From Octopus vulgaris (Eukaryota), in NCBI GenBank assembly GCA_951406725.2, contig OX597828.1:23374001-23438000 (forward strand): DNA of 64,000 nucleotides. Direction: 5' to 3'. The notes beneath the pieces are model-generated. The model saw only the letters and a program-made list of their open reading frames with translations, was not told the origin of the DNA and did no database searches. Position numbers and translations under genes: made by a program. Below, one piece after another: positions 18,881 through 19,527 of this stretch (positions are counted from its first letter, which is position 1; every line of letters starts with the position of its first letter).

Positions 18881-18882
<2 letters not shown>

Positions 18883-19527
18883 CTAAGCAATTAAGGGTTT
18901 AGCAACGAATTGCCTTACCACACACCGAATTTAGAAATAGCAGTCAAAGAGATTATAGCTATTTCTTCTACTAAAAGGGAGATCACAGTAAAGGCACAGC
19001 ATTTGAAAGGCAAACACAAACAGGTAAAAGAGAATGAATTAACGGCAATCTATCATACAGTTTTAAGTCACCTACGGACGTACGTTTCGAGATCAAGTCT
19101 TAGGAAAGCATAAGAATTAGATAACTCTACTTTACCCAGACTTCTTCTTTCATCAGCGCAGGATACAAACAATCATGAATGATTGAATATTGAATTTTGA
19201 GATACTAGAAGGCACCAACTCAACTCAGTATCAGAGCGAGCTAGAAGCCACAGCTAGTATCACCAAATTCAAAGTATGAATGAAAGCTTGTGTCACCAGT
19301 CCCTTCCCACCCGCGTGTAGCCAAGACAAAGTGCTGTGGTCATTTACTGGGATGAATATGGTTTATGAGTAACAATGAAGGGTGAAATTAATTAATTTGG
19401 AACAATTATCAATTACACCAAGTAGTCTTCGGCATGTAAAAGCCTCATTCGAGGAAAATTTAAGTAATACTAAGCAATTAAGGGTTTAGCAACGAATTGC
19501 CTTACCACACACCGAATTTAGAAATAG
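18881..19527 (-). mobile_element. Non-coding hammerhead-bearing element with 60-bp terminal direct repeat (retrozyme or Penelope pLTR-like), 587-bp unit
   Basis: 18881-18940 and 19468-19527 are identical (tactaagcaattaagggtttagcaacgaattgccttaccacacaccgaatttagaaatag). Internal intact hammerhead, (TA)n on both flanks, no meaningful ORF. Confidence 0.8.
19071..19162 (-). ncRNA. Minimal type I hammerhead ribozyme, intact core
   Basis: Minus strand: cctgcg-CTGATGA-aagaagaagtct...agacttgatctc-GAAA-CGTACG-TC-cgtagg. Stem I is 6 bp, cleavage triplet is GUC, stem III is palindromic. Confidence 0.88.

What the first reader, a model, noticed from the sequence alone, without database searches (positions are those of the whole stretch)
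18881..19527. 587-bp hammerhead unit with perfect 60-bp terminal redundancy: candidate circular-RNA-derived retrozyme
Seen: the first and last 60 bp are identical, so the insert is about 1.1 copies of a 587-nt unit. It has one intact GUC hammerhead on the minus strand (predicted cut between 19077 and 19076), no coding capacity and (TA)n on both flanks. A 60-bp repeat is too long for an ordinary TSD. Established: retrozymes and PLE pLTRs occur as partial tandems with one hammerhead per unit. Inference: reverse transcription ran slightly more than once round a 587-nt circular RNA, or jumped template. Identity of the two repeats suggests a recent event.
Basis: partly seen in the sequence, partly recalled or inferred. 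Interest (0 to 1): 0.85.

Follow-up and report, generated by a model that had tools for sequence, protein, structure and literature searches.

The report
Penelope-mobilised hammerhead retrozyme copy
This is one short copy of a dispersed, non-coding 587-base repeat that carries a hammerhead ribozyme motif and sits in TA microsatellites; its copies begin at two fixed internal points like Penelope-type retrotransposons, so it was likely pasted in by such an element's enzyme, possibly reading round a circular RNA that has not yet been shown.

Summary
Observation confirmed: 18881-18940 equals 19468-19527, unit 587 nt, type I hammerhead motif on the minus strand, cut 19077|19076. One correction: the base pair closing stem II is A·C here, not G-C.

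The insert belongs to a young dispersed family (146 exact hits of a hammerhead 16-mer; 90 insertions examined) with two sister subfamilies at about 65% identity that keep the ribozyme. Copies are not freely permuted. They start at two fixed sites, 196 and about 300 nt downstream of the cut, never at it, and stop anywhere. The 60 bp is therefore just where this copy stopped.

About half the insertions have two inverted arms; 38 of 39 pair one site with the other. Hydra-like Penelope elements in the same genome do likewise. Units and arms of one insertion share a haplotype and cross the cut site without indels, which fits rolling-circle copying but also homology-guided template jumps. No circle, cleavage or helper was shown.

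Verdict: new member of the animal non-LTR retrozymes. The scan noted a similar TA-targeting repeat, without ribozyme, in another genome (e1-7810660).

The parts
18881..19527 (-). Whole insertion, 1.10 units, one arm only. RNA sense is the minus strand; the first cDNA strand would be the plus strand.
18881..19467 (-). Full 587-nt unit, non-coding, 38% GC, strongly structured on this strand only
19468..19527 (-). First 60 nt of a second round; the variable (5'-truncated) end
19071..19162 (-). Type I hammerhead motif: stem I 19162-19157 with 19076-19071, CUGAUGA 19156-19150, stem II region 19149-19089 (A·C at 10.1-11.1), GAAA 19088-19085, 2-bp stem III with palindromic loop, predicted cut 19077|19076
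18881..18919 (-). Start site A (unit positions 581-6; used by this copy), with the adjacent pyrimidine-rich motif and predicted hairpin at 18896-18919
19356..19419 (-). Start site B (unit positions 476-494; used by other copies), with the same kind of motif and predicted hairpin at 19381-19419
18854..18882 (.). Left (TA)n target tract, at the primed end; boundary ambiguous by 2-3 nt
19528..19551 (.). Six non-element bases followed by the right (TA)n tract

Best explanation
This is a 1.1-unit, 5'-truncated copy of a young, non-coding, hammerhead-bearing tandem repeat family (a non-LTR retrozyme) that lies in TA microsatellites and was likely inserted by a Penelope-like element's protein, most likely reading round a 587-nt circular RNA. 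Inferred cycle: (1) multi-unit copies are transcribed on the hammerhead strand; (2) paired hammerheads, joined through the palindromic stem III, cut out monomers that a host ligase closes; (3) a PLE protein, likely Hydra-clade, cuts (TA)n DNA and starts reverse transcription at two internal hairpin-plus-pyrimidine sites, one DNA strand at site A and the other at site B; (4) each cDNA runs a variable distance, giving one arm (as here) or two inverted arms. Shown: family, target, fixed starts, A+B rule, variable ends, shared haplotypes, ribozyme covariation. Inferred: transcription, cleavage, ligation, circle, helper.
For: Family: 119 matches at 95-100% identity (a few lower) from 40 scored of 1894 candidates; 146 exact 16-mer hits against 0 for the reversed control. 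Starts: of 33 first sites, 22 are two-armed (19 A+B, 1 B+B, 0 A+A, 2 with one off-site start) and 11 single-armed (10 A, 1 B) (my classification). Of 57 further sites, 19 are A+B, 0 A+A, 0 B+B, 6 have one off-site start, and 32 are single-armed (28 A, 3 B, 1 at position 10). Pooled 38 of 39 mixed, p=7e-11 against 50:50. Subfamily B: 18 of 21 two-armed loci are A+B (the query guaranteed a B arm). Anole PLE protein starts at two internal sites and cuts and extends both strands of AT-rich DNA (PMC11167929). Co-resident Hydra-like PLEs have the same long-stem-II, palindromic-stem-III hammerhead, end in (TA)n, and pair a proximal with a distal end in 5 of 5 two-armed copies seen. Template: 138 passes over the cut site with 0 indels; divergence 0.54% within an arm (n=30), 0.67% between arms (n=22), 2.58% between sites; 14 of 46 multi-segment sites carry a site-unique variant in every covering segment, including all 5 units of one array. 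Structure: circular-fold z -6.65, -5.98, -7.66 for the three subfamilies, -1.34 for the other strand, 0.33 and -1.72 for controls; 6 of 12 hammerhead pairs change on both sides.
Against: No circle, cleavage or transcript was shown. 32 of 46 multi-segment sites have no site-unique shared variant, and one array (C3:55.78 Mb) has clearly different units, so its template was a mixed multimer or several RNAs. 'Site-unique' is relative to 90 sampled sites; an unsampled homogeneous source array, or later gene conversion, could give the same sharing. Seamless junctions are also expected from uncleaved multimers or homology-guided jumps. The window sublineage and subfamily B amplified with A·C at 10.1-11.1. 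In anole PLE the hammerhead is not needed for insertion in vitro, and 8 of 9 Xenopus retrozyme dimers did not cleave. No sampled PLE shares sequence with the unit. Covariation comes from only three subfamilies.
Confidence: 0.55

Rival explanations
1. Same non-autonomous PLE-type element, but the template is linear: uncleaved read-through transcripts, with arrays regrown by seamless jumps through the terminal redundancy (a pLTR-like strand transfer). The hammerhead then only trims 5' ends or is a passenger.
For: Fits the fixed starts, A+B rule, seamless junctions and shared haplotype if both templates come from one locus. The mixed-unit array needs a multimeric or multiple template. Six arm ends fall within 190-202, near the cut (p=0.05). 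[quoted passage not shown] Autonomous 3.6-kb Hydra-like elements also form tandems.
Against: The median insertion is about 1.2 units, yet derived sublineages hold homogeneous 4-5-unit arrays, which would need several faultless jumps each. The hammerhead and a strand-specific fold are kept across three subfamilies. Other animal retrozymes were shown to make circles (PMC7229834).
Confidence: 0.33
2. The unit is the terminal pLTR of an unsampled autonomous PLE; the copies are its 5'-truncated ends, with tandems made locally by DNA-level duplication.
For: Solo pLTR-like ends are common PLE products; the window holds one of another family at 39380-40112. Only part of the PLE families and 90 insertions were sampled.
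Against: Arms run from the unit straight into the next unit, never into coding sequence. PLE ORF fragments lie near 11 of 90 sites but none joins the unit's 5' end (flanks about 1.5 kb for 33 sites and 3 kb for 57). Multi-unit runs with partial last units occur in both inverted arms. Three colinear subfamilies keep a 560-595-nt unit.
Confidence: 0.08
3. The 60-mer is a target-site duplication or chance repeat of host DNA.
For: None beyond the direct-repeat layout.
Against: The 60-mer is the first 60 nt of the unit in all tandem copies on many contigs.
Confidence: 0.01

Closest known systems
Animal non-LTR retrozymes (Cervera & de la Peña 2020, PMC7229834; Li, Clavereau & Pollet 2026, bioRxiv 10.64898/2026.07.22.740005)
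   Same: Non-coding, low-GC tandem units with one type I hammerhead each, a short palindromic stem III, a strongly folded RNA, and co-occurrence with PLEs. Rolling-circle reverse transcription by a PLE is their proposed model.
   Different: The unit is longer than the 170-400 nt of the characterised invertebrate circles but within the 51-972 bp of the 2026 survey. Stem II is very long, and is A·C-closed in some sublineages. No TSD is discernible. I saw no account of two fixed internal starts or A+B inverted arms in the parts read. Circles are not shown here.
Endonuclease-bearing Penelope-like elements, especially the Hydra clade (Craig et al. 2021, PMC8557442; Frangieh et al. 2024, PMC11167929)
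   Same: (TA)n targets, partial tandems, inverted truncated arm, optional tail at one end only, two internal initiation sites downstream of a hammerhead.
   Different: No ORF. The tail is about 100 nt (30-40 nt is usual; about 155 nt in the co-resident 899-codon Hydra-like family). No sequence match to any sampled autonomous pLTR.
Non-autonomous Chlamys elements such as MRC1 (PMC8557442, passage seen)
   Same: Non-autonomous PLE derivatives with pLTRs and multicopy head-to-tail insertions.
   Different: Those generally match their autonomous partner at the 3' end, and most Chlamys lack hammerheads.

Membership tests
animal non-LTR retrozyme | non-coding unit, GC below 50% | tested here: met
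   38% GC, longest stop-free frame 72 codons
animal non-LTR retrozyme | dispersed head-to-tail tandem copies | tested here: met
   arrays up to 5.2 units; 90 sites examined
animal non-LTR retrozyme | type I hammerhead core in each unit, short palindromic stem III | tested here: met
   core present in three subfamilies with covarying stems I and II; no Rfam hit
animal non-LTR retrozyme | G10.1-C11.1 pair closing stem II | tested here: inconclusive
   A·C in this copy and in subfamily B; G-C in 53 of 75 segments of the second set
animal non-LTR retrozyme | at least two consecutive hammerhead units at the locus ('active' in Li et al.) | tested here: not met
   this locus has one hammerhead; other loci of the family have up to five
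animal non-LTR retrozyme | stable self-paired fold of the hammerhead strand | tested here: met
   z -6.27 linear, -6.65 circular; opposite strand -1.34
animal non-LTR retrozyme | self-cleavage and accumulation as circular RNA | not testable with these tools
   no run on record as RNA; only contigs could be laid
animal non-LTR retrozyme | long TSD when present | tested here: inconclusive
   both flanks are (TA)n, which hides any TSD
PLE-type insertion (works like) | two fixed initiation sites, tail at one end, inverted truncated arm, microsatellite target | tested here: met
autonomous PLE | RT plus GIY-YIG ORF between pLTRs | tested here: not met
   0 of 90 insertions joined to an ORF at the 5' end
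derivative of a specific Hydra- or Neptune-clade PLE | sequence homology to the partner's pLTR | tested here: inconclusive
   none in the families sampled; sampling was limited to top-scoring candidates

The most novel reading that the evidence does not exclude
These insertions record a PLE reverse-transcriptase dimer priming both ends of a cut (TA)n site on one circular RNA, at two duplicated hairpin-pyrimidine sites, and rolling round it. A Hydra-clade protein would mobilise the circle in trans by recognising structure, without pLTR sequence homology. This would be direct genomic evidence for the proposed retrozyme cycle and would supply the recognition motif that animal retrozymes were said to lack.
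Probability: 0.3. Interest if true: 0.7.

Novelty: new member of a known kind. Interest (0 to 1): 0.45.

Why it matters
The class is known, and so is the idea that PLEs move retrozyme circles. A 2020 review (PMC7761336, passage seen) says animal retrozymes show no conserved motif pointing to their helper. This family is young enough to read its ends. It shows two conserved start sites, a near-absolute rule that the two DNA strands use different sites, and intact Hydra-like and Neptune-like candidate helpers in the same genome. That makes a direct in vitro test possible of whether a PLE enzyme copies a circular RNA and how the PLE 'tail' arises.

Tried and rejected
Rfam gave no hammerhead hit. 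The minimum-energy fold forms stems I and II but mispairs the core (z -2.36), so it neither confirms nor excludes activity.

Free circular permutation was rejected. Starts at the cleavage site were rejected: 0 of 90; the nearest arm starts were unit positions 203 and about 175-180. An alternating two-unit pattern suspected in the 5-unit array on C12 was not real. An excess of arm ends at the cut is borderline (6 ends, p=0.05) and is not claimed. Six ends at 59-66, beside a predicted hairpin, were not tested.

Helper search: one Pfam accession I recalled was not in the library. GIY-YIG hits (30 loci of 148 matches, plus 10 wider stretches) gave Neptune-type families. Two protein searches (40 loci of 300 matches, plus 34 wider stretches) gave Hydra-like families with 842-1091-codon frames. 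None shares pLTR sequence with the unit; the matches in those loci were separate insertions of this family.

Expression: no RNA holder listed. Contigs of four runs of uncertain type cover the unit but cannot show strand, ends or circles, and no contig bridged an empty site.

No Pol III B-box of a convincing kind and no AATAAA were found. No earlier scan notes exist for this genome or sequence. The search 'octopus, Penelope, hammerhead' listed no paper describing this family.

Full report
OBSERVATION. The first and last 60 bases of 18881-19527 are identical and 587 apart. The minus strand carries a type I hammerhead pattern with the cut at 19077|19076: stem I of 6 bp, CUGAUGA, a 61-nt stem II region, GAAA, a 2-bp stem III with a palindromic loop, and GUC. 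The pair closing stem II is A·C. Cervera & de la Peña 2014 (PMC4209133, passages) call G10.1-C11.1 highly conserved and state that such weak palindromic stem III motifs cleave as dimers, not monomers. Rfam does not detect the motif. There is no coding frame over 72 codons, and both flanks are (TA)n.

FAMILY. The host genome is 2.8 Gb in 227 contigs and rich in microsatellites. A flanking SINE looks to me like an octopus one, but that is recalled and comes from no call. The unit search gave 119 matches from 40 scored of 1894 candidates. An exact 16-mer from hammerhead stem I occurs 146 times, against 0 for the reversed control; the first 100 were listed. I examined 33 distinct sites, then 57 further sites picked from the lists. 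Two sister subfamilies are colinear with the unit: B, 578-595 nt and 65-67% identical, and C, 560 nt, seen at one locus. In a 9-row hammerhead alignment, 6 of 12 pairs change on both sides, against at most 2 in slid controls. The rows come from only three subfamilies, so this reflects few independent events. The circular fold of the hammerhead strand has z -6.65, -5.98 and -7.66 in A, B and C; the opposite strand gives -1.34 and two controls 0.33 and -1.72, with 25 shuffles each. In the second set 53 of 75 segments have the canonical G-C pair and 22 have A·C. The window copy is thus in a sublineage that spread despite that change.

ENDS. Read on the plus strand (first-cDNA sense), arms begin right after (TA)n at site A (unit positions 581-6) or site B (476-494), 196 and about 300 nt downstream of the cut in RNA sense. 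Each site follows a predicted hairpin and a short pyrimidine-rich motif in all three subfamilies. First set: 22 two-armed (19 A+B, 1 B+B, 0 A+A, 2 with one off-site start) and 11 single-armed (10 A, 1 B; one has an unclear far end), classified by me. Second set: 19 A+B, 0 A+A, 0 B+B, 6 with one off-site start, and 32 single-armed (28 A, 3 B, 1 at position 10). Segments under 88% identity were dropped and only one cluster per locus was kept, which probably hid second arms at L224 and L246. Leaving out the 8 off-site cases, 38 of 39 are mixed (p=7e-11 against 50:50). In subfamily B, 18 of 21 two-armed loci among 30 are A+B, 1 is B+B and 2 are off-site. No arm starts at the cut. The 134 far ends spread over positions 24-581. 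The window copy is a single A-started arm that stopped 60 nt into its second round.

MECHANISM OF INSERTION. Frangieh et al. 2024 (PMC11167929; abstract, main text and part of the methods) show that an anole PLE protein cuts and extends both strands of AT-rich DNA. It starts reverse transcription at two internal sites that define the PLE tail, is predicted to be a dimer, and does not need hammerhead cleavage in vitro. Craig et al. 2021 (PMC8557442; passages and section 11) describe partial tandems, inverted truncated copies, a tail often at one end only, and (TA)n targeting by the Hydra clade. This genome holds intact PLEs. One is a Neptune-type family with RT, a zinc-finger linker and GIY-YIG. 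Others are Hydra-like by the DKT, CxxC and CxH motifs (no Pfam hit for the 899-codon frame). The Hydra-like hammerheads mostly have long stem II regions (about 47-61 nt) and, in most, palindromic stem III. In the 899-codon group, ends fall 131-140 or 278-294 nt after the core, and 5 of 5 two-armed copies seen pair one with the other. The anatomy therefore points to a PLE protein, and Hydra-like is the closest match. No sampled family shares sequence with the unit, so the helper is inferred. PLE ORF fragments lie near 11 of the 90 sites, none joined to the unit's 5' end.

TEMPLATE. Arms cross the cut site 138 times with no indel within 6 nt; the first set had four substitutions at two loci. Segments of one insertion differ by a median 0.54% within an arm and 0.67% between arms, against 2.58% between sites. 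At 14 of 46 multi-segment sites a variant seen nowhere else is in every covering segment, and at 6 of 25 two-armed sites it is in both arms. The median insertion in the second set is about 1.2 units, yet derived lineages hold homogeneous 4-5-unit arrays, so arrays are regrown from one monomer haplotype. Rolling round a circle explains this most simply. Against it: 32 of 46 sites show no such variant; one array has mixed units; unsampled source arrays or gene conversion could mimic the sharing; and strand transfer through a terminal redundancy would also be seamless. No RNA evidence could be obtained. I put the circle at 0.55 and linear templates at 0.33.

COMPARISON AND NOVELTY. Cervera & de la Peña 2020 (PMC7229834; passages, sections 14 and 17) defined animal non-LTR retrozymes, showed their circles in coral, mussel and axolotl, and proposed PLE-driven rolling-circle copying. 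Li et al. 2026 (bioRxiv; parts 1-3 of 5, introduction to discussion) tie them to pLTRs in Xenopus; its supplements were not seen and might describe ends. The family meets the sequence-level criteria. This locus alone has one hammerhead and would be a dead-end product. In five literature searches (most papers seen as listings only) and the 2020 review passages (PMC7761336), I saw no account of two fixed starts with an A+B rule in a retrozyme. That is a limited search. An unchecked scan note, e1-7810660, reports a tRNA-bearing PLE-type tandem repeat in TA microsatellites of another genome.

VERDICT. Real, and a new member of a known kind. The 60-bp redundancy itself is ordinary. The family's end anatomy is a useful and testable handle on how PLEs move retrozymes. 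Interest 0.45.

Noticed in passing
window 39380-40112: Palindromic pair of 3'-end fragments, 96% identical to the pLTR of an intact 842-codon Hydra-like PLE family, with its long-stem-II hammerhead (core at 39606, minus strand).
   Followed up: partly
window 22499-22572 (+): Another hammerhead-like core with a 54-nt stem II region and palindromic stem III; family not identified.
   Followed up: no
L151-L153, L160-L164 (e.g. G000:C1:119.51-119.53 Mb): Very young Hydra-like PLE with an 899-codon frame in 3.6-kb tandems, one of several intact Hydra-like families (842-1091 codons) in this genome; no Pfam match for the 899-codon frame.
   Followed up: partly
L091 (G000:C16:20834500-20842500): Young Neptune-type PLE with a 781-codon frame, an upstream frame of about 350 codons, 456-bp direct repeats and (TA)n ends; some copies have a roughly 40-nt tail. 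My pattern found no hammerhead in its 3' region.
   Followed up: partly
L037 (G000:C9:105.63 Mb): The host flanks on both sides of a two-armed insertion are inverted copies of each other, suggesting a fold-back at insertion.
   Followed up: no
L010/L014/L015 (G000:C3:55.78 Mb): A 4.75-unit insertion with unlike units that seem to recur with period three; a possible multimeric template.
   Followed up: partly
L108 1293-1856: Three 197-200-bp repeats of only the two start-site regions of subfamily B, with no hammerhead.
   Followed up: no
L188 7046 (+) and 995 (-); L161 6227 (+); L102 1678 (+): Further hammerhead-like motifs of other families; the genome seems rich in them.
   Followed up: no
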